A stretch of 64,000 bases of DNA from Prorocentrum cordatum (GCA_963575745.1 CAUYUJ010000325.1:310001-374000), one strand, 5' to 3'. Positions 12,231-64,000 are shown, numbered from the stretch's first letter. The notes: a model not told the origin generated them from the sequence alone. Program-made: numbers and translations.

Positions 12231-12479
12231 CTGATCCCGCTCACCCCCCCCCCTCGCTCCCTCCCCTCCAGTGGGCGAGGTATAGGGTCAGGCGGTATAA
12301 GCGAGAGCCAGCACGTCGAGCACACGAATTATCCCCCCCCCTCCCCCCCCCCCCCCCTGCAGAATGCACCCTTCCCCCCTTCTGAAGGGGGCGGGCGGGC
12401 GAAGGGGGGGGGCGAGCTCGGGGGCTGGGCAGGGGCGGCGGGGGAGGTGGCTATGGGGCGAAAGACGACGATTGTTGCG

Positions 12480-14405
12480 ACGCTTGACCTTACGCTCATG
12501 TGGCAGAACAAATGGAACTTGGGCGTGAACGCGATGCCCGCATTCTCGGCGTGCACGCAGAAACGAACAGCATTGTCCAGGAGCTCCTGGTAGTAGTCTG
12601 CCTCGAGCACGAGGGGCGCGTGCCTGCACACGTCGAGCCACGCCTGCAAAGACTTGCAGGCTGTCAACAAGTCGCTGCTCCCATGGATGCGATCGCCCCA
12701 CTTCTTTAGCTGATGAACTGCAAAATCAAGGAGGAGTGCCGTCTCTGCGGCCTTCGTTGCCATGATCGCACCTGGGTGCGGCATCCACGAGAGGGAAGCC
12801 TTCGCCTGTTTACCACAGGCGTTGAAACCAATCATTTTCAATGTCAGACGGCCCAGCCTCCGATCGTGCGGGACGCCCTCGTCATCAAACCACTTGAACA
12901 TTTCGCTCTCCAGGCGCCGAATGCAATGTGCCACTGAAAGCTCGAACCTGCCATGGAATGACCACACATTCGCCTGAAGGATGCGAGATAATGCGCACGA
13001 CGTCGCCCTCATCACAGGACCGCAGCACAAAGTATGAAGTGTATCTATCGCGAGGTTCTCATGAGGAGAAGTTCCCAAATATCTATCAAATAATGGGCAT
13101 CGGTGGTTAGCCCAGTAGGTGCACCGCCCATGCTGGTCAAAGTGTTTCCTCCAGAAGACACACTTGAATGGCGTTTTGAGGCTGTCAAACTGTCGGATGT
13201 CGTGAACGTCGCCACCAGGCTCCAACCGGTCACCCGCCAAGAGCCCGAACTCGGGTAGAGCAGTGATCAGGCACCTGCCCTTGCCAATCTCATCTGGGTG
13301 GTATTTCAGCAAGCGCACAATTTCAGATCGCTGGCGATTGTCGAGGACGTTGACATGGCGCTCACACGCAAGGCAGCTCTGCTCGTAGTCGGCCGCGGCC
13401 CTGTCCTCGTAGGTCACCCCGCTGGCATCCAACATGCCAGGCATGACAAAGTGGAGGCAGCTGGATGGCGCTGGACAGCACGGGCACGGATTGTGGAACG
13501 TCTGCCAATTGCTCGATCCAAAGGTTTTGGCAAATTCAGACCAATCTCCTTTGGCATACACCATTGTCGCAGTAAACCCCAACGCCCGCGAGGCGTCCTT
13601 CTCGTCATCCCACGCCGAGCCGTCAGGCTTTGCTGCAGGGGAGAAGCCGTCCTTGAGAGCACGCAACTGCCACGCCACAGCGCGGAGGACGGTGTATATG
13701 GAACACCACCCGCCGCAGCCGCAGGTACACATGTCCCCAGTACGCACCACCGCTACCAAGTGACGCTTATTCGACAACAGGTTGGTGATGGATATACCCA
13801 ATATGGAGTCTGGTCTCGACTGCATTGCCGTGAACCGAACGCCATCGCAGTAAAATGCAATCGGGAGGGGATAGTTCTTGCCAGATGCCAGTGCTTCCTG
13901 GACGTTAGGACTGCTGAGGTATGATCGGTTTGCTAGATGAGACGCGCGGTCCACCGACCCATTCTCAAGGTTCTCCCTCATCCACGGGTTCTGATCAAAT
14001 TCATCGGCTAATGAATTGCATGTTAATGCAATGGGAATGGTGTGGTACGTTCGCTCTGCCCGACCCTGCACGCGCGCGGGCATCTCCACATCAACAAAAG
14101 TGAAAGTCTGCGGGGGGGACTGGATCAAGTCGAGCTTTGCACTGGCCTGATTGAAGGTCAGGCGCCATTTTGTATAAATCCCAGTCAGCTCCCTCAACAC
14201 CCGCGGCATCAAGATAATAACACAACTCGCAGAGATCACGCGCGGACATAACCTTGCACGCCCCATGCATCCCGAGAAGTTTCTTGAAAATGGAAGACCC
14301 AGCAGCATGACGAGCAGCAGAGCTGCGGTCTGCAGCGTCGCCGCCATCGCCGCTTGGCTGGTGGCGAGCCCTGCGCCGCCGCTTCGTTGCTGGTTCTGGC
14401 CGCAT
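12480..14405 (-). pseudogene. CACTA/Mirage/Chapaev (CMC)- or Plavaka-like DDE transposase, frameshifted near 14115, C-terminus missing or spliced elsewhere
   Basis: PIAFYCDGV (D1), CTCGCGGWC, YAKGDWSE (D2) followed by CPCC, AIDTLHTLCCG and FTPKFHLFCHM follow the CMC motif order. The N-terminus reads better in frame 14091-14405 (SARDLCELCYYLDAAG), switching at a G7 run. Confidence 0.7.
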
Positions 14406-16064
14406 ACTTGCGATGCAAAGCTATGGCGTACGGATCCGAGACGAACGATGACGCGCACTGCGCATAGGTCAGGGGGGTGGGGCTGGGGGCGGCTGGGCCC
14501 GATGCGGGGCGAGGATAGGTGAACGAGTCGGGAGAGACGGGCGGGGTAGAGTGCAGAAGGGGTAAGAGGGGAGAGGGGCAGAGACTTGGCGGAGAGGAAG
14601 ATGGCATGGGGAGGGCGCCCGCCCAGGCGCTCGACATCCGCGCGAAGGAGAAGCTGGTCTCACCCCAGAGAAGTGCTTGAAGGCCGCCAATGGGGCCCGC
14701 GGTTTGGGGAGAGGCTCGGAGGTTTGAGCGCCAGTGGGCGCGATGAGACCCAGGACCAAACCGAGCAGCTCTCGGGGGCGTGCGAGCGAGCAAAGCTGGG
14801 CGCCTTACTTATTTAATGACCCATCCCCTCAGACATTCTTCCCATTATGCGAGCCATGTGCACTGTCCGAGGGGATATCTAGCACCCGCGCTGGAAAGAC
14901 CAGAACGACGATTGCGAACAACTGATAGTCATCCCTCGCTGGTCGGCGGATGCCGTGAGCCACGCGCACGCCACGTCATCAATTTGCGTGCTGACTACTC
15001 TACTCAGAACCCTGCAACTCGCTCTAAATATCATGATGATGATGGCATGCGAGGTGATCGCCCACCCCCTCCTCTTCTCAACGGTCGTCGTCGTGATCCT
15101 GGCCGTCCGCTCGTCCTTGTCCTTCTCCTCCTCCTCCCTCCTCCTTCCTTATATTCCTCCTTATCCTTCTCCTTCTCCCCCTTCCCCCCCCCCTTCCCTC
15201 CCCTGGGGGGGCCCTCTTGGAAAACCACCTCCCCAACGCCCCCGAAGAACATGGGGAGGCGGCAATACTCCCAACGCAGTGCTTGCATCGAGCGATCGGC
15301 GCCCGAGGGCATGCTATGATCGCAGGTCTTCCAACATGTGTAGCTTCTCGTTGGCAACAACGACCAACGCTGAATTCGGGGTCCACACCGCGACGCCATT
15401 TCTGAGAAAGCAGCACACGCGAATAGTCGATCACCTCGGGACGAGCTCGCCTAAGCACACCTGTCTTGCACCTGTCTTGTACTGGATTGCAAAGGGATGT
15501 TGCATACGTGAACTGCCCTGTTTAGACCTCTTGCGTTGCCGCATGTCGTTTGCCCTCGCACTATCGAGCGCGCAGACAGGCACAGAGCACGAAAAACGGG
15601 GTGCGATCAGCTGTCGCGGCGCAAACCCCAGCACCGCGCCGTCGCACCCCGATCGGGCGAAGTCCCGAAATCAAGATCGGCAACGCATGCGCCGCAGACA
15701 CGCTCTCCATGTTCCCTGGGGGGCTCCTGGAAGTTTATACGCAGTTTAGCCGGTAGTTTATTCGCGGCCCTGGGGGCAGGAAACCATGTGATTTCACAGG
15801 GAAGCGTTACGTTTATACGGGTAGTTTACATGGGCAGTTTAGCCGGTAGTTTATACGGTAGTTTGGCGTGCCAAGTGTCTGCCGACACCCCTGCGACAGC
15901 ATTGCAACTTCATGGGGGGCTGATCCGCCCCTCATGCAGGCCTAGGCCCATGCCCAAGACCTCACCCCAACATTAAATTATCGATTGCACGCTCTGCGAT
16001 CGAGGCCCTCATGCACTCGAGCGCTGCTATGGAAGGTATTAGGTGCAACCCTCAGAAATTGTGT

Positions 16065-19000
16065 TCACCGACTCCCATGGGAGCTCGAGGCCTTCCTGGC
16101 CTTCTTAAGGTTCGCCTTCTCAGGGAGAGAGACCAGGCGCACGCGGCTGTTGTGCTGAGCAATCAGCAGGCGGCACTCGTGGTCGAGCGCCTCGACAGGC
16201 TCCTTCAGAGCGAACACGGCGCGACCCAGGACCGCCTGCACTTTCTCATCTCCGAGCGTAGACTTCAGGTTCGCGAACTGGCCAGCGAGGCAGGGGGCGA
16301 GGTCGCGGTCCTGCTTCAGGATCTCGTGAACCTCGATCGGGGCGCTCATCTCTCTCATCCTAGTCTGTCCTGGCCCCCTCGTGTCCCCTCCAATCCTCCT
16401 CTTGCCCTCGTCTCCTTCTCCTCCTTCTCGCCTCCCCTCGCCGCCCTGCTCCTCCTCCTCCCCATCCCATCCTTCCACCTCCTCCTCCTCCTCCGCCCCC
16501 TCCTTCCCCCTCCCAGCTCCCCCCGAGCCCTTGCCTGCGTCGCTCCCCGCCCCCTCGAGATCCTCGAGCCCCCCATGCCCTCCCTCCTCCCAGTCACCTG
16601 CCCCCCCTTCACTCCCCCCATCCTCCTTGCCGCGCCCCCCCCGCCCCCTCCAAGGCGGAGGGGGCGGGGGGGGCGGCAGTTGGTGGTCCGAGGAGCGGAG
16701 GCGGAGGAGGAAAGTGAAGGAGGATAGCGGGCGCCTTGCTGTCCGCGCTGCGCAACGGGCCCATCATGACGTCGTTGTCGGCCCAGCACCAATCGGGGTC
16801 GGACTTCACCATCCTGAGGATGGTGTTGCACTCGCTGGTGGCCTTCTGGTAGGAGGTCTTCAGCTCCTTGAACTTCCTCCCGTTGTCATCGGGCTTCCTC
16901 GAGATGACGCGTGCTGGGATGCCGCCATCACCATCCCCGCCGCCTCGGCCCTTGACAGCACTTCTGGGCGTCGGAGTTGCAGCGCCCTCGCCCCGCGGCC
17001 GCGTCGGGGTCGCCGTCGGGGTCGCCGTCGGGGTCGCCGTCGGGGTCGGCGTCGCGGGAATCAAGCTAGGCGTCGGGGGCGACGCGGCAGGCTGACCTCC
17101 CGCGCGCGAGGGCGTCGCGGCTGGCGCGGACTGCGCCGCGGCGTCGCCCTCCGCGGAAGCATGTGCAGTCGGCTGCTCGGCCCAGTCCTCCCACGCCCTC
17201 CAGGAGCGCTTGAACTCGTCGCGGACGCTGTGCTGGACGTGCAGATATTTGAGGACCTCACCCATCTCGTCCCACGAGCACCAGATGCCCCCCATGATCA
17301 CGCAGTTCGTCGCGTAACGAACGGCAATTTTCATGCCGCTCGAACCTCCGCCCTCGAGCCATGCCAGGCGGCCCAGGGACACGTATGTCCCATTCCTGAT
17401 TTCAGACTTCGAATGCTTCTCATCCTTAGAGCGGCCCCTGGCCACCTGGTGTTTGTCGTACTTGCCCTTTGCCCAAGCAGCGCGGAAGTCGGCCTTCTGG
17501 AGGTACCCCTCCTTCGCACGGTATTCTGCCGCCAAGGCAGCGTCAGCTCTCAAGGCCCTAGCCCAGCGCCCCGCAATGCTGTTGCCTGAAGTGCAGGCGG
17601 TCCCGAACTTGAAATCGTGCGCCTTCATGCCCTCCCAGAAGACGTCTTCCTCCGCCAAGGCCTTCTGCTTTGCATCCATCGAGAGCTCCTGGTCAGCCTG
17701 ATGCAGCGCTTTCATCTTCCTAACGAGATCGCTGTGGTACAGCTGCGAGATCGACACCTCGGCTTTCTGCGCGGCGTCCTCGAGGACGAACTTCTCGGGA
17801 GCGCAGCTTGCCAAAACCTTCGCAGCATCGTTGACGCGATCCATCTGCTGGACCACTTGTTGCCTCAGAGTCTCCTTGTCAGTCGCTGGCGCCATGGGGG
17901 CATCGGGGGCAGGCTGCGGGGGCTGCGCCGGCTGCGGCTGAGGCTGCGCGGGCGGCTGAGCTGGCGGGTAAGCCGCCGCTGAGCCTGCCGCCCAAGGGGA
18001 TTCGGTCTCCCGCGCGGGCGCGGAGGCCTGCGGCGTGGAGCCACTGCTCTCTCCCGCTGCAAGGGGCTCCGCGCGCGGCAAAGACGCCGACCGCACGCTC
18101 GTGGCCGCTGGTGTCATCGGCGACGGCTGAGGCACGTCGCCATGGTCGACCGAGTCGGGGTAAGGCACCTCGTGAAGCTCATCCAGCCTATCTTTAGCTT
18201 GCTGCTCCTTTTCCCTCTCAGACATGGCGAACTCGAACGTCGGCAACTCTGGCACACATGGCGTCTCCGAATATTCAGAGTCCGTGTCCACATCATGTTG
18301 GTTACACCCACTCAGCCTGCGGTCGTCGCTCGCGGTAGTTGAGGCGACTTCCCACCGCTGGTTCCGCATTGCCTCGTACTCATCAAGTTCAGCTTCCAGC
18401 ATGAGCGCCTCAGCCTTCTCCTTCTCCTCCTGCTCATAGGCCAATTTCTTTGCCATGACGCGCTTGCGCTCGTTGAATATCATGGTGGCCTGGCGCTTCG
18501 CCTCGTCCTCATCGATGATGGCTTGGGCTTCGTCATCTGGGCTGATGCCGCCACCACGCTGGCGCTTGCGCGCCTTGCAGTCGATCACCCTGTGGAGTTT
18601 CTTCTTCTGCCCCTCCCTCTTGGCAGCTTCATCCGCGACCTCCTCGGCTGGATCGCCTGCTGCGCCTGCGCCCAAGGGGGGCTCGGGGGCATCTGCTGCC
18701 GCCGCTGGCGCCTCCCCAGCCCGCGCCGCCTCCGCGGCCTCGGCTGCCACCTGGAGCCTGGCCTGCTGAAGCGCCTCGGCCTTGGCCTGCTGAATCGCCT
18801 CGGCCTTGGCCTGCTGCGCCGCCTCGAGCGCATCGGCCTTGGCCTTCTGCAGCGCCTCGTCTCTGGCCTGCTCCAGCGCCTGAGCCCTGATCTGCTCGAT
18901 CTCGGCTTGGGCCTCCTGAAGCGCCTCGGCCTTGGCCTGCTCGATCGCATCCTCTACGGCCTTGGCTGCCGCCTCGCGCCTGGCCTCATGGAGCGCATCG

Positions 19001-19398
19001 GCCTGTGCCTCCTGCAGCGCCGCGGCCTTGGCCTGCTCGAACGCCGCGGCCCTGGCCTCAGCCTTGGCCTGCTCGATCCTGGCCACATCGGCCTTGGCCT
19101 CCTCCCCTTCAACCTGCTGCGCCTCGAGGGCCAGCAGCTCTGGCTGCGCAGCCAAGCGGGCGCGCTTGCTGCGCGGCGCGATCCAGCCCGACGGCGACGC
19201 GCAGCCAGGCGCCGCCGGCTCCACTGGGCGCATCGCCGCTGCCTCCTCCGCCGCGTCGCCAGCCAGCTGGGCAGCCGTCGGCGTGTGGTCGACGCCCTCG
19301 GGCTCGCCAGGCGGGATGCCTGCCTCTGCCATCAGCGCCTCGGCCTGCTCTCCGAAAGTATCCACAATCTCCTGAGCGGCTCGAGGAACGCGTTTCAT
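16065..19398 (-). CDS. Two-exon hypothetical protein with Ala/Glu/Gln-rich coiled-coil repeats, probably transposon-associated
   Basis: Long ORF from ATG 19398 with EQAKAEALQ-type repeats (~18740-19100) and a globular part ~17200-17650. A phase-0 intron 16734-16332 (AAG|GC...GAG|GTT) joins ADSK to VHEILKQDRD; stop at 16065. Confidence 0.65.
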
Positions 19399-19522
19399 TT
19401 GCGCGCCCTGGTGCAATTTCGGCAACGGCACCAGAGCGCGCAACTGAAATCCAGAAATCTGCGCCCCCCCCCCCCAGAAAACCGCTCACGGCCAACGTGA
19501 GCGGTTCTCTGGAGGGAGATCG

Positions 19523-25379: not shown

Positions 25380-26900
25380 CGCGCCTCCAAACGAAATGCC
25401 TCAGCGCAATCCGCATCTGGGCGCGCGGACTGGGCCGCCAACTTTGCGAAAAGCGGGCCGCCCACGTCAGCCGAGACTTTGCGCGCTCGCGGGCCGCGGC
25501 CCCGCAGCCGCGCCGACGCCGCGCCGCCGCGGGCAAGCAAGCGGCCCCGCGCATCGACGCGGCGCGCGCGCCTCGCGCTCGCGCGCGATAGAGCCGGGCG
25601 AGCGCGCGCGCGCGCCCATTCGACGGCGGCGCAAGTCGGGCGCCAAGGCCGCGCCCGCGCCGCCAGGACATGTATTCTTTGCAACAGATTGCGCGAAGAG
25701 CAACTTCGGCTGGTCAGCTTCCGCCGCGGGCGCCGCCGCGCATCCCTGGAGCGATTGACAGAACGCCGGCGGCGGCGGCTTCGGCGCCTGGACGCGCGGG
25801 CCACGGGCCATCTCAACCAGGCGCGCGACGGAGAGCCGCGGCGCTCCCACGGACTGCACCCAGCCTGCCCCCCCAGACGGGTCGGGCGGCGTTGGCAGTC
25901 CACCGCTGCGCCCCAGCTGCGCCTGCCACAACGCGCGAGGGGGGGAGGCGCGAGCCCTCGCGCCCGCGGCGCCCCCGCCCTTGCGCTGCCCCGCTCGGGC
26001 GGCGCCGGCGCGCGAGGCGCGCCCGGCGCCGCGCGCCGGCGCCTCGGCGGCGGCGGCGACGCCGGCATGCGGCGGGGCCGTTGCGGCCGCGCCGACATAG
26101 GGCGACGCAATGGAAGCGGCGTCGCCGCGCGCCCCCGCGCGCGCCCTCAACGCCTCAATGGCACTGCCGCCGTTGCTTGCTTCGAAGTGCGTCGACGCCG
26201 ACGCGCGCGCGCGCGGCGGCGCGCGACGCCGCCCGCCGCTCTCGACCGGCGAGCGGGTGCAAGACAAGATCGCGAAAGACATTGCAACGCCCGAGCTGAG
26301 CAAGGCCTCGCACGAGACGCCCCGGCCTCGACAGGATGCGCTCGCGTTTTCCGCGGGCGCGCCCGCTGCGGGACAACGCGGCGCTATGCCTTCTCGCGAC
26401 GCCGATGCGCCGCGCCGCGTGGGCGAGCAAAGAGCGCCCGCGCCTTTGTGACGGGCTTCGCACGAGTGGCCCTCGCCGCGCAAGGCTTCATTCAAGCTTT
26501 TCGGAAGGCATGCCGCGCGGTCGCGGAACAGTGCGCCGCCATTCCTTCGCGCGACGCCAGCGCGGCGCGCCGCGCGGGCAAGCAAAATAATAATCGCGCC
26601 TTCTTGACAGGGCGAGGCGGCGCCTTGACCCGGCGGTCTTGGCCGCCATTGCCCTTATCGCCCTCGCCCTTGCCGCGCCCCTTGCCTTTTGCGCGGCTCC
26701 GGCTGCGGTCGCGGTTCCGATCGCCCTTCGAGCCCTTCGAGCCGCCCTTGGCCTCGCGCTCACAAGCACGGCGCCGCGCGCCCGTGCGAAGTGACGACTT
26801 GGCGCCTTTCGGCGCGAGGACTCCCAGAATTCAACTTCGCGCGACGCGTAGTCTTCGCCCCCAAGCATCTGATTCGGGACACAGCGCTCTATATGTGTAC
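25380..26900 (-). mobile_element. Truncated fragment of an intron-rich YR-type retrotransposon (end of gag, start of pol)
   Basis: The basic tail KGGSKGSKGDRNRDRSRSRAKGKGRGK resembles the gag end at ~62000. DVGGPLFAKLAAQSARPDADCAEAFR (~25390-25470) resembles the pre-RT motif at ~61050-61180. Short (GC)n-rich intron-like inserts end in GCGCGAG|G or GCGAAG|G. Confidence 0.5.
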
Positions 26901-27025
26901 AACTCACTGTGGTCTTCACCGTCTTCTACATTCATATGTAGGAGCTCGTGGTGGCCCGTATTGGGCGGTAAACGCCCAGGATAAAAAAAGCGTCTGGGGG
27001 GACCTAGGGGTAGTAGTGATAATAT

Positions 27026-28120
<1,095 letters not shown>

Positions 28121-28136
28121 ATGGTAGTGGCACTCG

Positions 28137-30440
<2,304 letters not shown>

Positions 30441-55336: not shown

Positions 55337-55706
55337 GTGAACGTGGTTTGGGTCGCGGGTGGGTCGCGGACTCCCCACCTCCACCTATAGGAATGCAAAA
55401 GCAGCCCGCCGCAGGCTCCAAAAAAATTGGTTTGTGCACTGAACGTGGTTTGGGTCGCGGGTGGGCCGCGGGTTCTCCACCAGAAACGAATGCAAAAAAT
55501 GCCCGCCGCAGGCGCCGAAAAATGTGGTTTGTACCCTGAACGTGGTCGCGGGTGGGCCGCGGGCTCTCCACCTGAAACGAATGTAAAACATGCCCGCCGC
55601 AGGCGCCGAAAAATATGGTTTGTACCCTGAACGTGGTTTGGGTCGCGGGTTGGTCGCGAGTTGGTCACGGGGTGGGTCGAGGGCTCTCCACTTGGAAGGA
55701 ATGCAG

Positions 55707-55750
<44 letters not shown>

Positions 55751-56072
55751 CAGGCGCCGAAAATGGGTGTTTTGTACCTTGATACCTTGAACGTGGTTTG
55801 GGTCGAAGGTGGGTCGCGGGTGGGTCGCGGGGTGGGCCGCGGGTGGGTCGCGGCTGGGTCGCGGGTGGGTCGCGGCTGGGTCGCGGGTGGGTCGCGGGGT
55901 GGGCCGCGGGCGGGTCGCAGGGTGGGTCGCAGGGTGGGTCGCGGGGTGGGTCGCGGCTGGGTCGCGGGGTGGGTCGTGGGGTGGGTCGCGGGTGGGTCGC
56001 GGGTGGGTCGCGGGTGGGTCGCGGGTTGGGTCGCGGGTTGGGTCGCGGGTGGGTCGCGGGGCGGGTTGCGGG
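55337..56072. repeat. ~100-bp repeats (TGAACGTGGTTTGGGTCGCGGG...) followed by a (GGGTCGCGGGT)n array
   Basis: Seen directly. Confidence 0.9.
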
Positions 56073-56087
56073 TGGGACGACGACAAC

Positions 56088-56120
<33 letters not shown>

Positions 56121-56121
56121 C

Positions 56122-56250
56122 GAGAAGTCGCGTCGAGGCTGGGCCCGCGCTAACGCAGGGCACAACCGTCGACTGGCGCAGGCCCAGGCCAGGCGGTGGG
56201 GTGAGCGCGAGTCGGCGTCGCGGAGCCGAGCAACCTCGCCGACGCCTCCC
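56122..56250. repeat. Terminal direct repeat B2 (129 bp)
   Basis: Base-for-base identical to 56552-56680. Confidence 0.95.
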
Positions 56251-56551
56251 CCAAGCCTGGCGCTGGGTCAGCCCAGCCTCGACACAACTAGCAGCCACTG
56301 CGACGCCAGTGCGCTCGCGCAGCAGGGTCGGGCGGGTGGGGAAAAACGCATCCCGCCAGCGGGACGGCCACGCGTGAGACAAATCCCATTCACCTGCGAC
56401 GAGAACGCGCTCGCGGGCGCGCAGGGTGGGGATCCGCCTCAGCCGTGAATAGCCGTCCCGCAGCATTAGAGACAAGCAAGAAGATAGCCAATAGGGGCCA
56501 CGACGCTCGCGCGACTTCTCCCCGCGCTCAAATGCTGCCCAGAGCGCCCAT

Positions 56552-56680
56552 GAGAAGTCGCGTCGAGGCTGGGCCCGCGCTAACGCAGGGCACAACCGTC
56601 GACTGGCGCAGGCCCAGGCCAGGCGGTGGGGTGAGCGCGAGTCGGCGTCGCGGAGCCGAGCAACCTCGCCGACGCCTCCC
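56552..56680. repeat. Internal direct repeat B1 (129 bp)
   Basis: Base-for-base identical to 56122-56250. Confidence 0.95.
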
Positions 56681-56748
56681 GATGCATGCTCGGCGGAACG
56701 ACGCCCAAGCGCGCTCTAAGCAGACCGCAGATGCCTGGTCTGCTTGAC

Positions 56749-58810
56749 TCACGGCCTGGGCGGCCCCTGCACCGCTTCCGCGGCGATCGGCGCGTCCTGC
56801 GCGCCACGCGCCGCCGCGGAGCCCCGACCCCGATGCCTGCAGGGCGGCGCCTCGTCGGAATCGGAGTGCGCGATCTCGGCTTCTGCCGCCAGCACCATGG
56901 CTCGCGTCTTTGCGGCCGGGTACCTGTGCGCCGCCAAGCGCCGCGCCCTCGCGACCCAGGCAGCGCGGCCGTGCCCCCTGTCGGAATGGAGTGCCCGAGC
57001 GCGGCCACAGATCTCCAACCCCCTTCGAAGAACAGCGCTGCTGGCCCCCCGGTGCGGAGTGCCTGTGTGCGAGAGACACGAACTGCGCGCGGGCCCTGGG
57101 TAGGCAGGGGACGGCAAGGGGGGCCCATGCCTGGTCGGCCCGGCCGCGCCTGAAGCAATGCGTCCCCCACTCCAATGCCCTATGGAGCCCGAGGTGGGCA
57201 GCGGCGAGCTTGACGCAAGCCAGCCCGTCCACGTAAGAGACGCCCGGCAGGAGCTGCTCGCCGGGCCGGAGCGAATGCCGAATGATGCAGACCGCACACA
57301 ATCGTTTGCCCTGGAGCTGGCATACGCATACCCTCCAGACCTCGCGATGCGGGGAGCCCGGGGCGCGCCCCGCCGCGCGCGCGCGCTCGGCCCGCCGGGT
57401 CGGGAGCCACTCTCCCCTTCCGCTGGCGGAATTGCACCTGCACCTGGTGCTTTCCTTCGTCTACGTGGAGCGAGACGGCACTATGCCCAGGCGCATTCAG
57501 CCCCACTACTTCGGAGCCGAAGCGCAAGCAGAACTGCCAGCATATGACGAAAGCGTCGGCCATATCGCCGCGTCCGATCTGCCAAACGCCAGGCCCGCGG
57601 GCCGGCACGCACGGCAGGCCGCTTAGTTAGAAGAGCGCGCGGCCGCGCCTCGCGCAGCCAGTCCGACATCGCGCGCACGTTTTCGGCCGTGGAGCGCGCG
57701 CGAAATCTTTGCGCACCAGGCGGTTCCGCCTGCCGCCGATATCATGGGCTCGCGGCCGACGCGCGCGGCGGCCGTACCTTTCGGGCACCGAATACCAGGG
57801 CCCGCGTGTCCGCCAAAGACCCTGTGTCTGCGCGGAGCAGATGCAGGACTGAGCGAATGCCCTGCAAATAGTTCGACAGGGTCCCCGGGCGGCGACAGAG
57901 CGCCACCATCATGTCCCGCGCGATGGCGCACGGCGGCCAGGGCGGGACGCCTGCCGCATCGCACGCCTGGCCGTACAACTCCACCGCCGAGGCATACGGG
58001 TATGCCGAGAGCTTCCACGCGTGGAATTCTCGCCACAGCGCGGCCATCTGGATGCGGCGCATGTACTCCAGTCCTGCTCCTGACACCCGCAATTCCTCGG
58101 CGCGCCGACGAGGTGTTCCTGGCACCCGCCGCACGCCGATGTCCTGCCTCGCGCGCACCTCCCGCGGAATGCCGCCTTCGCTTATGAATATCGCGGGCGG
58201 AGCCTGGAGTTTCGTCAGCTGGCGGATTGCCTCTGCCAGCATCGGCGGCGCTGGTACCTCCGCGCCGCGCGCGGTGCACGAGGACGGTGGCGCCGCGCGG
58301 TGGTGCCTGCCGCGCCTGCCTTGCCGCTGAGAGCAACGCGAGGGCTTCTTGAGGCGTCAAACCCCCGCCGGGCCGGCGTTTCGCGCGCAAGCCCGGTGCC
58401 GGTGCCGGGCACTTGGCCGCTTTCTCGAGTAACGTTTCCGCCGCCTTCGCGCCCACGGGTCAGCGGGCGGCGGCCGGCCTTGCTTGCTCCGCCGGATGGG
58501 GCGGAGTGGCGCGCGCGCGCTCGACCTGGGAGAGCGATGCCGCTGCATCGTCCTCCCGGGGCCGCTTTGCCTTTTCGTGGGTCAGCTTACGCGCGTGAGT
58601 AATAAGCGTCACGGTGAAGCACTCTGACCACTCCCGGAGGCGCGGGAACACTTCCCTCGCCTCCTTCGCCGTGAATCCGGACAGGTCGGGGGGATACGCC
58701 GCTCCTTCGGCTGCGAGCATGGATGTCAGACACTGCAGAGCTTCCGCGCCTACCGGATGCGAATCATTTTCGGGCGTCCACCGCGACGCGTGTGACAAGC
58801 ACGCAAGCAT
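56749..58810 (-). CDS. Multi-exon tyrosine recombinase
   Basis: TLSNYLQGIRSVL (SAM-like domain), FCLRFGSE (R), RQRKG (K), WGTHCFRRG (HxxR, ~57160) and GGWRS. Catalytic Tyr (TAC 56922-56920) follows once intron 56994-56924 is removed. Start is approximate. Confidence 0.82.
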
Positions 58811-58903
58811 GGCGCCCGCGGGCCCCCTCTCGCGGCGGGCCTGGTCGTCACGCGCTCGCCGCGCAAGCCTTTGCGCCCCCTACAAATTGCCCTGTGCTAC
58901 TTG

Positions 58904-61821
58904 CTATGCACGCCCGCGCGAATGCCAGGGCGCCGCGCGGGGCCATGGCCACGCCACTCGGGTGAAGCCCTCGCGGTGCATGGCCGCAATCGCGGCCGCC
59001 TTCGTGGCGGGCCGCGTAGGGGCGTCTGCCTCGTTGAGCGCGGATGGCACATACCGCGCGCTCAGGAGGCACCGCGCGGTCGCTGCTGCGAACCAAATAT
59101 CTGCCACGAGCGCGTTATAATCTGCCTGGCGCGAGGCCCCGCGTAGGAGCACCCCGAGCGCGGCCTGGCGCGGTCAGCGGAGCATCGCACGGGCAGCTCG
59201 GCGACCCGCGCCCGGCCGCGCCTTCGAATCGACAAACAACACGATTTCCGCATCGCGCAGCGTCGCGAGCAAATGATGCAAGGCGCAAACGGCCGCGACG
59301 AGTTCCCATGCCGCGACCTTTCGCAACACGGCGGGCTGTCCGCCAGGCTACGCGTGGCCGGGGCGCCCCCGCCTGCGTCTTGCGGTGCTTCGTCCACCGC
59401 TTGATCGACGAAGGCACATCAGCCGCTGCATAGCGCTTACCGCTGGGCCCAATGATGACCCACGCGAGCCTGCGGAGGCGGGGCGGGCCGGGCAATGCGG
59501 GCGCCGTTCCAAACAGGCGCGCGCGTATGTCGCCTGCCGCCGCCCGTCGCGTCGGAATAGACGAGGTAGCGTGGCCGCTCCGGGGTCACCCGCAGGGGCA
59601 CCGCTCGTTCCGGCGCGCTCCGGAGGAAGCGCAGCCACCATTCCAATGCCCCGCGGAGCCGCGACTTCAACCTCCATCCCCGCTGCTGCGCGTGCCAGAA
59701 CAGCGGGGCGAGGTATACCCGGGCACCTGCCGTCGCTCTCGCGCGCGCGCGTCGCTCGCGCGCGGGAGCTTGGGCGTGCCTCTGCCGAACACCGCAGAGG
59801 AGCCCCATCCGAGTCTGCCGGCAAGTTTTGATGCCGCCGCCGGCGACATTCTCCCTGCCTCCAGCACCCACTCGATCTCTTGGATCCATTTGTGGCGCTT
59901 GTCGCCACCGATCGCGAATACTAACGAGAGCTCATCGCCCGATCCGCGCACTTCCGCGTCGACGCCGAGCACAGTGGCCCTCGGCTCGGCAACAACGCGT
60001 TTGCCGGCGTCCAGGCGCCAGCCCAAAAGGTCTTCGACGACCGCCCTCAGGACCTCTGCGGCATCGCGGGGGCCGCCCGCGCCGGGCCCCCTGTCCGCGT
60101 CGGCCCGGAACAGATCGTCCACGAATCGGCCCGAAGCGAGCGAGAACAGCTTGGCAAGGATGGCCTGCCGCGCTCGCGGGGCGCTCGCCGTGCCGCCGCG
60201 GCGCTCGCGCCTCGCGCCGGGAGCGCCGCCCCAACGCGGTCCCAAGCGCATCCGCTGCCCACGGCGCCGAAGGGGCAGCTCAAGAGTTGCAGACAGTAGC
60301 CCTCGCGGGCTCCCTTGGCCCACACCGAATGGGCCAACGGGAGGTCGGCGCCTCGCACGGGCAACGTTTTGTAAGCACCGATGAAATCTTCTTTGCTCAG
60401 CACCGGCGTGCCGGCCGCGGCCGCGACCCGCGCCAGCTCGACCAGAGCATCGAGAGAATCCACCCTGCGCGCGGTCGCGGCGACACGGGAGAGCGGACAG
60501 CGCGCGCGAGGGGCGGGGGGGAGGGGGAAGGGCCCGCCTGCACCTCTCGGCTGCGGCGGCGCAGTCATTAACGCCCGTGGCAGTGAAATCGTCGATCGCG
60601 CGCACCTGGACGCGTTGGCTCCCGGCGCGGCGCCCAGGGGAGGGGACGGTGCATGCCGCGGCGAATGCGCCATTCCTTGCGTATCCATTCTTCCAACTTC
60701 CAGCGCCATCCCTCGTCTACAGGGAATCGCGGGTTTAACACCGCCCCGCGTGGCAGGTCGGACAACCGGACCCACGCTGCCTGGCCCGCGGCCACCTGCA
60801 CGCTCGCGGACGTCGCAGCATGGGCGACTGTCCCCGCTGGCTTGCGCGGCGCGCGCCTCTTCGTATGCTTTATCATGCAAAATCTGGGTGACTTCCGCGT
60901 CGGCCCCCAGATCCCGAGACACGCGCTCGAGGGTGGCGGCGTTCAAAGTGTCCGCTCGGCTGCGCAACTCGGATGGGCATTCGGCTCCCTTGGGGGTCAC
61001 GGGCGCGTTCATGCCCGAGCGCGGCAGGACCCCCACTAGCGGGAAGCCCCGCTCCAAGTCACGCGTCAAATTCTCGTCGGACGCCTCAAGCACGGAGCCG
61101 CGCCCCGCTGTCGCGCGCGCGCGCGCTGCGTCGCTGGTCACCCCAGCAGCTTGCATCATTTCGGCCAAAAGCAACAAGTTCTTGTCAGGCCCAAGGACGG
61201 AGCGCACATGCCATGGTAACTTCGCATAGCGTGCCTCGCCCGACCGCGCTCTCCGCCGGCGCTTCGCGGTAGCGGCGCGCCGGGCGGCGCCTTCCATTCT
61301 GAAGCCGTCACGCGTTTGCGCTCTCGCCAAAATTGCAACGCCGCCTCGCGCCTCTCTTGCAAGAGCGCGTCGCTCGTCTGGCTCGCCGCCACCGCCGCAT
61401 CGCGCTCAGGTCCCGCAAGCGGCGCTATCTCGCGGACTCGCGGCAAGTGTGCCGCCCAGGCGGCGTGGCAAAGAGGGCTCATGCCCGCCCTCTTGTCTTC
61501 GTCGTCGAGCAACGCATCCACGGCGGCTTTGATCTGCGCGCGCGCGCTTCGCGGCTCCGCCCCCGTAGAGTGGCGGGCAAGGGCCTCTTCAAATGCGCAG
61601 CCGGCATCGTGGATTTGCTGGGGGCAAAGGTCGCCGCCCCCGCCTTCGGCGCCGTCGTCGGAATCAACATCCGCGTCCTGCGCTGCGCTCGCCGCGGGCG
61701 GGGCGGTCTCGCGCGCGGCGCACTGGCGGCGCCTCCTGCCCCTCGGGCGACGGCCCGCGCCACACTGCGCCCTCACCGCTGTCGGCAGGGTGCAATGGGG
61801 AGGCCCCGTCGTCTGCATCAC
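58904..61821 (-). CDS. Multi-exon pol: DIRS-type reverse transcriptase plus RNase H
   Basis: DLERGFPLVG, PRFPV, K|VRAIDDF...GVN, KEDFIGAYKTLPV, CPFGAVGS...WDRV, FVDDLF (~60120), VLGV, KLAGRLGW, LEWW, VYSDA (59553), WELVA, LFVDS and NALVADIW lie in different frames that join on removing short introns. Ends are approximate. Confidence 0.88.
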
Positions 61822-61919
61822 TGGCTGGTGCGGCGCCCCCGCGGGGGGGCGCGCGCGCGCGCGCGGAGCGCGCCTCGGGCGGGCGAATAATTAGCATGCA
61901 CAGCGCCGGCGCCCTGGCT

Positions 61920-63712
61920 TCACCACCGCCAGGACTCCTTTCGCTCAGGCTTGTGCCACGAGCTCCCCGCGTCCTTGGGAGCCCCTCCCTTGCCGGCCTT
62001 TCCGCTCCCCTTCTTGCTGAAGGTATCGCGGCGGGGGCTGCGCGAGCGCTGGCGGAGGACAGGGCTCACCGGGGTCCGTGGCTTCGCCGCCTCGCGCGCC
62101 GCGACGCGTGCTCGCGCTCGCGGGGCGCGCGCGCGCGGGCTCGCGCCTGGTCGCGCCGGTCGTTGCCGCCTTTCTTGCCCCCGCCCTTGGCGAACGCCGC
62201 CTGGCGGTCCGACTGCTGGACTCTCTCCTACAGCGCGCAGCGCGATGCACGATGCCAGGGCGGCGGCCACTCAAAAGCGCTGCGCTCCTTGGCGGCGCGC
62301 AGAATGTCCCACGACAACGCAGTGAACGAGGCCGTCGCATCCTCGTCGCCGTGTTCCAGGTCTTTCGCCACTTTCTGGCGGAGAAGCAAATCGTACGTGT
62401 AGGAAACCTGGACGCGGCGCGGGCTCCCGCGCGCGGCTCCCTGGGCATCGGGCCCGCCGCTCCGCGGACGCGCCTTGACGCCCCCGTGCTCCTCGCTCAC
62501 GCGCGCGAGCTGGTACATGTATCCCAATAGCACGACGGGATCAAACACTTTGGACAGGATGCAGCGAAGCCCCCACTCCATTACGTGGGCCTCGCGCCAC
62601 GGGGCGCGCGTGGGCGCGCGCGCTGCGCTGCGTCGCGCGCGACCTGGAAGTGCGCATAACCGAGAAAATCCATTCGGTCCAGGGCCGCACCCGCGCGGTT
62701 CGCCGCGGTGACGGCCGACGCGCGATCGCGCCACGAGCCCGCCCCCGCTGGCACCGAGTCCAGCTTCGGCATTCGCGCCCATTGGGGCTTGCAGTGGTCC
62801 TGCGCGCGGAGCAATCGGCGAAACGGAAGCTTGTCATTGCACGTGCCGCCGAGCAGGGAGCCTGCAGGCTCTCGCCCTCGGCGCTCCCAATGTATGAGCG
62901 GCCATGGGACTGGGCCGTCCGGCCCGCGGCCGCGAATTTGCGCATCGACTCCTCGGTCGGCAATCCCTCACGGGGGAACTTGCCGAGCCAGACCTCGCGC
63001 ACGCGGTCCTGCCGAGGCGCGTATCCCCGAACAATGCCGCCCGCGCATGCGAAAACGCGGCGCGCCTCCATGGCAAACGCCAGCGGCTTCTCCCGCTTTT
63101 CTTCGAGCAATTCCTTGCTGGCCTTCACGTATTCTTCCATTGCCGCCGCAATCCGCGTCGTCTCCTCCGCGGGCTTGGCGGCCGCCTCCGCCGGGGCCGA
63201 TTGCTGACCCTCCTGGCGGCACGCCGTGCGGCGGCCCGCGTCCTCGCGCACCAACGGGGCGGGGGCCTTCCGCCCGAAGGCTTCCATCGCTCGCGACTGT
63301 GTCCGCAGCGCCATATTGATGCGGCACGGCTTAATCGCGAAATCACGCCACTCCGCGGAAGAATCGCCCGCAAACGGCTTCGCGCCTGGCTTCAGGGCCG
63401 CAATCAACACATCGCGCATGGCCGCATCCGAGTAATCAATCGGGCGGACCGCCCCGATCGCTTCGGCCATCAGGCGCGCGACCGTGGTGCACAGCACCAG
63501 CTCGGGAGCTGGCGATGCGCCCCCCTCCGCCGCGTTGGCCGCTGCGACGAAGAGGACCCAATCGGCCTTGCGCGCCGCTGCGAGTGGGCTCATGCCCGCG
63601 GTAGACGCACGGAGACGCGCGCGCGCGCCCTGATGGCATTTTTGTCGGCGCCGAATGCGCCAGCAGGCAGATCGCCAAGCAACTCAACGATGTCTGAGCG
63701 AGCCAGCGCCAT
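61920..63712 (-). CDS. Multi-exon gag-like ORF1
   Basis: Starts at ATG 63712 (MALARSDIVELL). Seven introns traced give a continuous helical protein (...EEHGGVK|VSYTYDLLLRQKVA...) with a basic RS/KG tail, upstream of pol. Confidence 0.7.
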
Positions 63713-63836
63713 GGATGCTGCGCGCGCGTCGGAAAGCGCCGTGCACGTATCCCCCTCGGCGTCCTTATCGCGCGCTGGCGGTTGCACATGACATAACCCG
63801 CAGGCATCCAGCGCAAGAGGGCAGGCAAACGCACGC

Positions 63837-63988
63837 CGCAGGCATACTGCGCACCGGGGCTGACAGGCAGCATCCGCAGGCATACTGCGCACTGGGCCGG
63901 CATACGGCAACCGCAGGCGTACTGCGTACAAGGGCCGGCATACGGCACACACTTGCAGGCATACTGCAACGCACGCAGGCATACTGCG
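63837..63988. repeat. Five spaced copies of the palindrome YGCAG-GCRTA-CTGCR upstream of gag
   Basis: Copies start at 63837, 63875, 63912, 63954 and 63974. Confidence 0.85.
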
Positions 63989-64000
63989 CTATGGGGGGGG

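What the first reader, a model, noticed from the sequence alone, without database searches (positions are those of the whole stretch)
56122..64000. Young tyrosine-recombinase retrotransposon whose three genes are split by many tiny introns
Seen: the gag, RT/RNase H and YR motifs switch frame repeatedly, and the switches I traced are repaired by removing a 53-71-nt GC-rich segment. These segments start with GC, GT or GA (usually after exonic AG) and end in AG|G. Traced on the - strand: 63628-63567, 63065-63009, 62861-62800, 62643-62591, 62473-62408, 62287-62228, 62146-62091 (gag); 61290-61235, 61141-61085, 60856-60796, 60675-60606 (pol); 57130-57063, 56994-56924 (YR). More are visible but were not mapped. 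Removing 60675-60606 rebuilds the K-x-R-x-I-D-D RT motif. Known: copying from spliced RNA removes introns, and intron retention is reported for only some retroelement groups such as Penelope-like elements and some YR elements. Inference: the perfect 129-bp repeats suggest recent movement with the introns in place. The element would then need spliced mRNA for protein but an unspliced RNA as template. Its uniform ~60-nt introns also differ from the mostly longer, repeat-filled introns at 16-25 kb.
Basis: partly seen in the sequence, partly recalled or inferred. Interest (0 to 1): 0.88.

Follow-up and report, generated by a model that had tools for sequence, protein, structure and literature searches.

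The report
Retrotransposon riddled with 25 tiny introns
A mobile element that copies itself through RNA has all three of its genes chopped up by about 25 very short introns that related copies also keep, which is odd because copying from spliced RNA should erase introns.

Summary
On the minus strand, 56122 to beyond 64000, lie three ORFs: gag-like, RT/RNase H and a probable tyrosine recombinase. They are followed by two perfect 129-bp direct repeats.

The 25 segments are 48-73 nt and 79% GC, with donors GC 20, GT 3 and GA 2, and all end in AG. Removing them gives ORFs of 458, 771 and 528 aa; unspliced, each ORF stops early.

The 10 pol introns are the best supported. The spliced protein is colinear with 8 uninterrupted homologues, with no gap at any junction.

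- **Close relative:** a 90%-identical metagenome contig keeps 9 of the 10 introns and lacks exactly one. All true indels lie in introns, and dN/dS on the spliced frame is 0.18.
- **More distant lineages:** a 64%-identical lineage has two recombinase introns at the same sites, with unrelated sequence.
- **Genomic DNA:** contigs from four runs keep the segments; none skips one.

No RNA run was available, so splicing and the unspliced-template model are inferred. The recombinase call is weak (motifs and a language-model lead; no Pfam hit). The 5' end lies off the window.

Verdict: a Ngaro-like element with exceptional intron density, and a new variant of a known kind.

The parts
56122..56250 (-). 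B2, the 3'-terminal copy of the 129-bp direct repeat
   Evidence: 100% identical to 56552-56680
56251..56551 (-). 301-nt spacer between the repeats (candidate A2 of a split direct repeat)
   Evidence: No copy elsewhere in the window. One contig of run X8 joins 56341 to 63908.
56552..56680 (-). B1, the internal copy of the 129-bp repeat
56749..58810 (-). ORF3, a probable tyrosine recombinase: ATG at 58810, stop at 56751-56749, 528 aa after removal of 8 introns
   Evidence: The spliced ORF shows an R...H-x-x-R...W...Y pattern. The Atlas lead points to the YR clan. No Pfam hit.
58904..61818 (-). pol ORF (RT/RNase H): ATG at 61818, stop at 58906-58904, 771 aa after removal of 10 introns
   Evidence: The AF2 model of homologue P0009 matches CaMV, HIV-1 and MMLV RT-RNase H.
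61920..63712 (-). gag-like ORF1: ATG at 63712, stop at 61922-61920, 458 aa after removal of 7 introns
   Evidence: No domain hit; called gag by position only.
63713..64000 (-). 5' leader with a 38-nt tandem repeat (63798-63967); runs off the window
   Evidence: The copy number of the repeat varies among runs (joints).
63567..63628 (-). gag intron 1, 62 nt, GC-AG
63009..63065 (-). gag intron 2, 57 nt, GC-AG, length in frame
   Evidence: consensus and composition only.
62800..62861 (-). gag intron 3, 62 nt, GC-AG
62591..62643 (-). gag intron 4, 53 nt, GT-AG
62408..62473 (-). gag intron 5, 66 nt, GC-AG, length in frame
   Evidence: consensus and composition only.
62228..62287 (-). gag intron 6, 60 nt, GA-AG; holds an in-frame stop
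62091..62146 (-). gag intron 7, 56 nt, GC-AG
61235..61290 (-). pol intron 1, 56 nt, GC-AG
61085..61141 (-). pol intron 2, 57 nt, GT-AG, length in frame
   Evidence: Homologues have no residues here. 2-nt indel relative to L001.
60796..60856 (-). pol intron 3, 61 nt, GC-AG
60606..60675 (-). pol intron 4, 70 nt, GA-AG; removal rebuilds K-V-R-A-I-D-D
   Evidence: 7-nt indel relative to L001.
60465..60537 (-). pol intron 5, 73 nt, GC-AG; absent exactly from L001 and P0001
60165..60217 (-). pol intron 6, 53 nt, GC-AG. The window has CCG before the donor; all three covering runs and L001 have CAG.
59727..59779 (-). pol intron 7, 53 nt, GC-AG
59470..59533 (-). pol intron 8, 64 nt, GC-AG
59318..59372 (-). 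pol intron 9, 55 nt, GC-AG
59165..59221 (-). pol intron 10, 57 nt, GC-AG, length in frame
   Evidence: Homologues have no residues here.
58445..58492 (-). ORF3 intron 1, 48 nt, GC-AG; tentative (removes an in-frame stop)
   Evidence: boundaries not verified.
58258..58315 (-). ORF3 intron 2, 58 nt, GC-AG; donor ambiguous (58306, 58315 or 58324)
   Evidence: Relative P0118 has no insertion here.
58119..58175 (-). ORF3 intron 3, 57 nt, GC-AG, length in frame
   Evidence: P0118 lacks these 19 residues. Model.
57730..57777 (-). ORF3 intron 4, 48 nt, GT-AG
   Evidence: P0117 and P0118 lose homology here.
57579..57648 (-). ORF3 intron 5, 70 nt, GC-AG (the only acceptor followed by A)
57341..57395 (-). 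ORF3 intron 6, 55 nt, GC-AG; donor chosen from several options
   Evidence: P0140 has a 22-aa unrelated insertion exactly here.
57063..57130 (-). ORF3 intron 7, 68 nt, GC-AG, directly after H-C-F-R-R-G-R-A-D-Q
   Evidence: P0140 has an 18-aa unrelated insertion exactly here.
56924..56994 (-). ORF3 intron 8, 71 nt, GC-AG, directly before the candidate catalytic Tyr

Best explanation
This is a nearly complete copy (its 5' end lies off the window) of a Ngaro-like retrotransposon of the DIRS order, in a GC-rich marine eukaryote. It carries a gag-like ORF, an RT/RNase H ORF and a probable tyrosine-recombinase ORF, followed by B1-spacer-B2 direct repeats.

All three ORFs are interrupted by at least 25 short (48-73 nt) GC-rich spliceosomal-type introns with AG|GC, GT or GA donors and AG|G acceptors. 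No protein can be made from unspliced RNA.

Shown:
- The anatomy.
- Removing the segments restores the ORFs and the colinearity with homologues.
- Diverged relatives keep the introns at the same sites while the spliced frame stays under purifying selection.
- Genomic DNA copies keep the introns.

Inferred:
- The host spliceosome removes the segments to make mRNA.
- The RNA that is reverse-transcribed is the unspliced, or mostly unspliced, full-length transcript, as in retroviruses, so the introns survive each replication cycle.
- A host with inefficient splicing would supply both RNA pools.
For: **ORFs.** Spliced ORFs are 458, 771 and 528 aa. The unspliced frames stop after 40, 220 and 116 aa.

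**pol.**
- tblastn of 5 uninterrupted homologues switches frame at the predicted introns.
- The spliced pol aligns with 8 homologues without a gap at any of the 10 junctions.
- The rough chance of such boundaries is 6e-13.

**RT/RNase H identity.** The AF2 model of homologue P0009 (pLDDT 88.4) matches CaMV, HIV-1, MMLV, XMRV and foamy-virus RT-RNase H at E 1e-12 to 1e-10.

**Comparison with L001 (90% identical).**
- Exon mismatches are 146 of 1633 and intron mismatches 80 of 514 (Fisher p 4.8e-5).
- There are 6 indel events in introns and 1 in exons; the exon one is an alignment artefact at the missing intron.
- Differences by codon position are 35, 21 and 90.
- dN/dS is 0.18.
- L001 and P0001 lack exactly the GC-AG segment 60537-60465.

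**More distant lineages.**
- P0140, a 64%-identical lineage, carries unrelated 22-aa and 18-aa in-frame insertions exactly at two ORF3 intron sites.
- P0118 lacks two other ORF3 introns but loses homology at a third.

**Genomic DNA.** Four runs gave 1742, 42, 28 and 83 laid contigs. None skips 48-73 nt. Contigs of X2 and X8 span introns without gaps.

**Splice-site usage.** The donor set GC/GT/GA with AG acceptors matches what is published for Emiliania huxleyi: GC 56%, GT 40%, GA 4%, AG 100%, and 89% of inspected introns with read-through (PMC4028052, section 15 read).
Against: - No RNA run holds the element, so no spliced junction and no unspliced full-length RNA has been seen.
- The gag introns and ORF3 introns 1, 2 and 5 rest on ORF restoration and the consensus only. 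Several donors are ambiguous.
- Neither the YR exons nor the naive relatives hit Pfam. A second Atlas query found nothing.
- A1 of the split direct repeat is not in the window.
- L001, the uninterrupted homologues and the ENA proteins come from unnamed environmental assemblies that could be DNA or transcripts. 'Lineage that lost an intron' and 'partly spliced transcript' therefore cannot be told apart.
- The missing segment is flanked by a 5-nt direct repeat (GCAGG), so slippage could also delete it.
- Minority contigs in run X7 carry 1-nt indels in exons as well as in introns: about 6 of the 12 listed are exonic and 4 intronic.
- The host species was not established.
Confidence: 0.75

Rival explanations
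1. The element spreads as DNA, so the introns never pass through a spliced RNA. The tyrosine recombinase would excise and integrate it like a Crypton, or it would spread by segmental or tandem duplication. The RT/RNase H would then be dispensable or serve another purpose.
For: Introns are ordinary in YR DNA transposons (Crypton-type Glomhopper; passages of PMC13465315). No target-site or cDNA evidence for retrotransposition was obtained here. One contig in X8 joins the 3' repeat region to the 5' leader, which a DNA circle or a tandem array would also give.
Against: The RT/RNase H is under strong purifying selection in its spliced frame (dN/dS 0.18). It is colinear with intact homologues, including the catalytic F-V-D-D box. 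The three-ORF order with 3' direct repeats is that of Ngaro retrotransposons (PMC8547959 passages). The exact absence of one GC-AG intron in a relative is most simply an RNA-level event.
Confidence: 0.1
2. This is a domesticated, vertically inherited host gene cluster derived from a retrotransposon. It acquired introns like any host gene and no longer moves.
For: The exons are under purifying selection and the intron positions are conserved between diverged sequences, as in host genes. No other copy lies in the window.
Against: In run X7, 1742 short contigs lay on the 7.9-kb stretch: 1118 at 99% identity or more, 571 at 95-99% and 53 at 90-95%. Up to 11 contigs carry a variant at one site, which indicates many diverged copies. 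At 63908 at least three different continuations exist. All three ORFs and the identical terminal repeats are kept together. Differences from the X2 contigs are 15 nonsynonymous, 8 synonymous and 5 intronic, which looks like neutral decay of one copy.
Confidence: 0.07
3. This is a decayed element. The segments are random insertions or expansions of GC-rich simple sequence, and the 'spliced' ORFs are an artefact of threading frames through GC-rich DNA, where stop codons are rare.
For: In 70%-GC DNA long open frames and G[CTA]...AG pairs are common: donor-like sites occur at 7.8% of positions and acceptor-like sites at 2.1%. My naive gene finder threaded spurious introns across real stop codons. 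Many segments contain (CG)n runs.
Against: All ten pol segments sit exactly where 8 homologues have no residues. Nine of them are shared at identical sites with a copy that differs at dS 0.26 while dN/dS is 0.18. Two ORF3 sites are shared with a 64%-identical lineage although the inserted sequence is unrelated. The segment lengths fall in the narrow range 48-73 nt.
Confidence: 0.03

Closest known systems
Ngaro retrotransposons (DIRS order), for example those of Cafeteria burkhardae, fungi and fish
   Same: ORF order gag-like, RT/RNase H, YR. No methyltransferase domain. Direct repeats at the 3' end that fit B1-A2-B2. About 6-8 kb and GC-rich (definitions from PMC8547959 and PMC13465315 passages).
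   Different: The Ngaro descriptions I read mention no introns in the element ORFs. In the Cafeteria paper the only 'contain introns' passage concerns the virophage genes. The fungal survey PMC3783388 has no occurrence of 'intron'. Here there are at least 25. A1 was not seen because the window ends. The YR is too diverged for Pfam PF00589.
kangaroo-1 of Volvox carteri (a PAT-like YR retrotransposon)
   Same: A YR retrotransposon of an alga with split direct repeats, listed among retroelements in whose transcripts introns were identified (passage of PMC1636488 citing Duncan et al. 2002).
   Different: The original paper is not held, so the number and place of its introns could not be checked. 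PAT-like elements carry a methyltransferase domain (PMC3266345 passage); none was found here.
Penelope-like elements
   Same: Retroelements that keep introns after retrotransposition. PMC8557442 calls them 'highly unusual among retroelements' for this (passage).
   Different: PLEs have a telomerase-related RT and a GIY-YIG endonuclease, and usually one intron or a few, often in the 5' UTR. Here the enzyme is an RT-RNase H of the LTR-retroelement/retroviral fold, a probable YR is present, and introns lie throughout all coding regions.
Retroviruses and intron-bearing LTR retrotransposons such as Ogre (recalled, not checked here)
   Same: Unspliced full-length RNA serves as the template while spliced RNA serves as mRNA for some products.
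   Different: There gag-pol is translated from the unspliced RNA and only one intron, or a few, is used. Here no ORF is translatable without removing 7-10 introns.
Crypton / Glomhopper YR DNA transposons
   Same: YR-encoding mobile elements whose genes often carry introns (1-20 predicted; PMC13465315).
   Different: They have no RT and move as DNA. Their intron positions are not shared between copies, whereas here they are.

Membership tests
Ngaro-like YR retrotransposon (DIRS order) | pol with reverse transcriptase and RNase H of the LTR-retroelement type | tested here: met
   The spliced pol is colinear with 8 homologues. The AF2 model of homologue P0009 (pLDDT 88.4) matches CaMV, HIV-1 and MMLV RT-RNase H at E 1e-12 to 1e-10. 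Pfam RVT_1 scores on the homologues are only sub-threshold, and RVT_3 passes its cut-off in 1 of 12.
Ngaro-like YR retrotransposon (DIRS order) | Tyrosine recombinase ORF downstream of pol (R, H-x-x-R and catalytic Y) | tested here: inconclusive
   The spliced ORF3 shows R (in C-L-R-F-G-S-E), H-C-F-R-R-G, G-G-W-R-S and a Tyr right after the last intron; the motif meaning is recalled. The Atlas feature search on one exon gives DUF3504, DUF3435, Phage_integrase and NDC10_II clusters at 0.86-0.91. No Pfam hit, no PDB sequence hit, and nothing from a second Atlas exon.
Ngaro-like YR retrotransposon (DIRS order) | Split direct repeats A1-[ORFs]-B1-A2-B2 | tested here: inconclusive
   B1 and B2 are present and identical, separated by 301 nt. 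No A1 copy lies in the window, which ends in the 5' leader. One X8 contig joins 56341 to 63908, as expected if an A copy precedes the leader.
Ngaro-like YR retrotransposon (DIRS order) | No methyltransferase domain between RNase H and the YR | tested here: met
   The pol stop is at 58906-58904 and the ORF3 ATG at 58810. No Pfam hit to Dam-like domains in any ORF piece.
DIRS1-like | Inverted terminal repeats with an internal complementary region, and a methyltransferase domain | tested here: not met
   The 3' end carries direct, not inverted, repeats, and no long inverted repeat involves the terminus. No methyltransferase was found. The 5' end is off the window, so the ITR test is incomplete.
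Penelope-like elements | GIY-YIG endonuclease and a telomerase-like RT without RNase H | tested here: not met
   The fold is RT plus RNase H of retroviral/caulimoviral type. No GIY-YIG hit in the ORF pieces.
Crypton (YR DNA transposon) | YR only, no reverse transcriptase | tested here: not met
   An RT/RNase H ORF is present and under selection.
U2-type spliceosomal introns | G[T/C/A] donor and AG acceptor in a consistent exon context | tested here: met
   Of 25 introns: donors GC 20, GT 3, GA 2; AG precedes the donor in 19; G follows the acceptor in 24.
U2-type spliceosomal introns | Removal restores the frame and the colinearity with homologues; introns evolve faster and take the indels | tested here: met
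U2-type spliceosomal introns | Spliced junctions seen in RNA | not testable with these tools
   No RNA holder was listed among 24 runs. The four runs laid were contigs of DNA or unknown kind.

The most novel reading that the evidence does not exclude
The introns are a working part of the element's life cycle, not passengers. Splicing would separate a translatable mRNA pool from an untranslatable, stop-filled genomic RNA that is reserved for reverse transcription.

The lineage has also changed its intron complement while living as a retroelement. A 56%-identical relative lacks two of the ORF3 introns, and a 90% relative lacks one pol intron.

That would make this family a natural system in which intron gain, intron loss and intron retention can be watched in a sequence that passes through RNA in every generation.
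Probability: 0.3. Interest if true: 0.9.

Novelty: new variant of a known kind. Interest (0 to 1): 0.8.

Why it matters
Reverse transcription of spliced RNA is the textbook reason why retroelements and retrogenes lack introns. Apart from Penelope-like elements, exceptions involve one intron or a few.

Here a retrotransposon cannot make any of its three proteins without removing 7-10 introns each, yet it keeps those introns across diverged lineages. That sharpens the question of how template RNA is kept apart from mRNA. The candidates are kinetic competition with splicing, nuclear reverse transcription, and pervasive intron retention in the host.

The question becomes directly testable in a culturable marine alga with RNA-seq, Iso-Seq and strain resequencing.

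There is also a practical lesson. Such elements look like frameshifted wrecks to standard TE pipelines. An earlier survey set aside the single E. huxleyi DIRS-like candidate for 'too many frameshifts or indels' (PMC3266345 passage), although I did not establish that this window is from that species.

Tried and rejected
- **Pfam on raw ORFs:** 18 raw stop-to-stop ORFs gave only chance-level hits.
- **Own genome:** none is held, so copy number, flanks and A1 could not be examined.
- **RNA evidence:** The look-up of sequencing runs listed no RNA holder.
- **Read laying:** the call showed no intron-sized joint. These runs are contigs of DNA or unknown kind, so this says nothing about splicing.
- **More copies:** scans of genome contigs and viral contigs found no relative. 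The metagenome scan found one locus only.
- **Codon-usage gene finder:** two versions failed. One collapsed onto wrong frames. The other fused the three genes through spurious introns and missed introns whose length is in frame. The final model was curated by hand against homologues.
- **YR identity:** the PDB sequence search with a YR exon gave 0 hits. tblastn against phages gave one chance hit at E=2. Pfam on YR exons and on naive relatives gave 0 hits. The second Atlas exon gave no usable hit.
- **PDB profile search:** the pol alignment gave only marginal HIV-1 RT hits at E about 0.3. The fold search settled this point instead.
- **YR structure:** an alignment meant to fold the YR (A2) was spoiled by out-of-frame naive ORFs, so I did not fold it.
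- **Introner idea:** the introns are not copies of one mobile intron family. They share only short (CG)n matches of 13-29 nt.
- **Earlier findings of this scan:** none by place, sequence or words.
- **Literature:** eight full-text searches found no report of an intron-rich YR retrotransposon. Repbase Reports and most subscription journals are not in that library. Duncan et al. 2002 on kangaroo is not held.

Full report
**Anatomy**

The last 7.9 kb of the window (70% GC) carry one element on the minus strand. Read 5' to 3' it has:
- a leader with a 38-nt tandem repeat (63798-63967) that runs off the window;
- a gag-like ORF, from ATG 63712 to the stop at 61922-61920;
- a pol ORF, from ATG 61818 to the stop at 58906-58904;
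- a third ORF, from ATG 58810 to the stop at 56751-56749;
- two perfectly identical 129-bp direct repeats, 56680-56552 and 56250-56122, separated by 301 nt.

The element abuts an (ACA)n run and an 11-nt satellite. No other copy and no copy of the 301-nt spacer lies in the window. No whole genome is held for the window.

**The observation**

- Removing the seven gag segments gives a 458-aa ORF. The unspliced frame stops after 40 aa.
- I mapped six more segments in pol and six more in ORF3, partly by hand and partly with homologues.
- The resulting ORFs are 771 aa (10 introns) and 528 aa (8 introns). Unspliced, these frames stop after 220 and 116 aa.

The 25 segments share these features:
- They are 48-73 nt long (mean 59.6) and 79% GC, against 68% for the rest (the GC figures are from the 24 segments).
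- Donors are GC in 20, GT in 3 and GA in 2.
- The exon ends in AG before 19 donors, and G follows 24 acceptors.
- They are not copies of one another.

**Are they introns?**

The strongest test is in pol. A phmmer search of 1.84 billion representatives with one exon (128 aa) found 114 relatives, among them uninterrupted proteins of 587-828 aa.
- tblastn of five of them against the element changes frame at the predicted segments.
- The spliced pol aligns with eight of them with no gap at any of the ten junctions, including the two introns whose length is in frame.
- A rough null for finding compliant donor and acceptor pairs at ten required breaks is 6e-13.

The family is RT plus RNase H. An AlphaFold model of homologue P0009 (pLDDT 88.4) matches CaMV, HIV-1, MMLV, XMRV and foamy-virus RT-RNase H at E 1e-12 to 1e-10. 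Pfam itself gives only sub-threshold RVT_1 hits, plus one RVT_3 hit above its cut-off.

**Comparison with relatives**

A metagenome contig, L001 (2159 nt, 90% identical), covers 61323-59088.
- It keeps nine of the ten pol introns at identical positions and lacks exactly 60537-60465. The junction that remains is the one expected from GC-AG splicing. The same junction is seen in the ENA protein P0001.
- Mismatches are 146 of 1633 in exons and 80 of 514 in introns (Fisher p 4.8e-5).
- There are six indel events in introns against one in exons. The exon one is the alignment artefact at the missing intron.
- Exon differences fall 35, 21 and 90 by codon position.
- dS is 0.258, dN 0.046 and dN/dS 0.18.

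The intron-bearing gene has therefore been kept functional, in its spliced frame, over this divergence.

In ORF3 two more distant lineages bear on the introns.
- P0140 (64% identical over the 61-aa query exon, 19 member sequences) reads through two introns in frame. They appear as unrelated 22-aa and 18-aa insertions exactly at 57395/57341 and 57130/57063, between well conserved exons.
- P0118 (56% identical) has no sequence at two other ORF3 introns (58315-58258 and 58175-58119), but loses homology at the intron after G-A-R-K.

One caveat applies to all of this. These records come from unnamed environmental assemblies and may be DNA or transcripts. A missing intron may therefore be a lineage difference or a partly spliced RNA. 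Either reading means that exactly this segment is removable. A 5-nt direct repeat at its ends also allows slippage.

**Genomic DNA**

No RNA holder was listed among 24 runs. I laid four runs of contigs at 90% likeness.
- No joint skips 48-73 nt in any run.
- Contigs of X2 (for example 2281 nt with 11 differences and no gaps) and of X8 span introns intact.
- In X7, 1742 short contigs lay on the stretch: 1118 at 99% or more, 571 at 95-99% and 53 at 90-95%. Up to 11 contigs carry a variant at one site, which points to many diverged copies.
- At 63908 three continuations exist: the window's own, one shared by X2 and X7, and in X8 a join to 56341 inside the 301-nt spacer. The X8 join is what an A1 copy in front of the leader would give.
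- Against a tidy picture, minority X7 contigs have 1-nt indels in exons (about six of the twelve listed) as well as in introns (four).

**Age of this copy**

The repeats are identical and all three spliced ORFs are open.
- The copy differs from the X2 contigs at 28 of 6860 aligned nt. Of these, 15 are nonsynonymous, 8 synonymous and 5 intronic, which looks like neutral change in one copy.
- One of them alters the base two before a donor and replaces a conserved Gln (CCG in the window, CAG elsewhere).

**Classification**

[quoted passage not shown] They do not fit DIRS1-like or PAT-like elements.

The tyrosine recombinase call is weaker.
- The spliced ORF3 shows the R, H-x-x-R, W and Y pattern (its meaning is recalled).
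- One exon draws DUF3504, DUF3435, Phage_integrase and NDC10_II clusters in the Atlas at 0.86-0.91.
- Pfam, PDB, phage tblastn and a second Atlas query gave nothing.
- No RT or YR phylogeny with named references was possible.

**Mechanism**

The donor set GC/GT/GA with AG acceptors is what has been measured for Emiliania huxleyi: 56%, 40% and 4% for the donors and 100% AG. In that species 89% of 535 inspected introns also showed read-through (PMC4028052, passages and section 15). I did not establish the host species.

In such a host, fully spliced mRNA and unspliced full-length RNA would coexist. I infer that the unspliced RNA is the template for reverse transcription, as in retroviruses.

The rivals are DNA-level spread by the recombinase, a domesticated locus and a decayed element. 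They are weighed in their own sections. The selection on RT/RNase H, the many copies in X7 and the homologue colinearity argue against them.

**Novelty**

Intron retention is described as highly unusual among retroelements and typical of Penelope-like elements (PMC8557442 passage). Introns have also been reported in transcripts of kangaroo-1, a YR element of Volvox (PMC1636488 passage; the original paper is not held).

Eight full-text searches found no YR retrotransposon with introns throughout all its genes. A 2011 survey left the one E. huxleyi DIRS-like candidate unplaced for 'too many frameshifts or indels' (PMC3266345 passage).

I rate this a new variant of a known kind, of high interest. 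RNA evidence is the missing piece.

Noticed in passing
window 56999-63649 (28 sites): At 23 of the 28 sites where the window differs from the contigs of run X2, the window has G or C and the other sequence has A or T. Most of these are also seen in X7 and X8. On the element's sense strand they are mostly A-to-G. At 7 of the 9 sites covered by L001, L001 agrees with the other runs, so the window's state is derived. This could be GC-biased gene conversion, editing of an RNA intermediate, or a strain difference; it remains unexplained.
   Followed up: partly
window 63798-63967: The 5' leader carries a 38-nt tandem repeat (4.4 copies). Contigs of run X2 'go back' by 105 and 137 nt here, and X2 and X7 have 38 extra letters between 63953 and 63870, so the repeat number varies between copies or strains.
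   Followed up: partly
window 55799-56121: The 3' end of the element abuts an (ACA)n run (56083-56121) and a 24-copy 11-nt satellite (55799-56076). Further 91-nt repeats lie at 55338-55658. The insertion context is satellite DNA.
   Followed up: no
window 12329-14659 (-) and 16609-19485 (-): Two long uninterrupted stop-to-stop ORFs of 776 aa and 958 aa lie upstream in the window. The first has Cys-rich motifs and could be a transposase or another mobile-element protein. Neither was searched.
   Followed up: no
proteins P0048, P0021 (relatives, not in the window): Relatives of the RT/RNase H occur in a dinoflagellate record (Prorocentrum cordatum, named by NCBI), in other NCBI eukaryote annotations and in many marine metagenome contigs of 3-7 kb. 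The family is widespread in marine protists.
   Followed up: partly
window 26900-28600: Very long low-complexity tracts (runs read as poly-Val, poly-Thr or poly-Arg in different frames) coincide with the 41%-GC dip at 28-30 kb.
   Followed up: no
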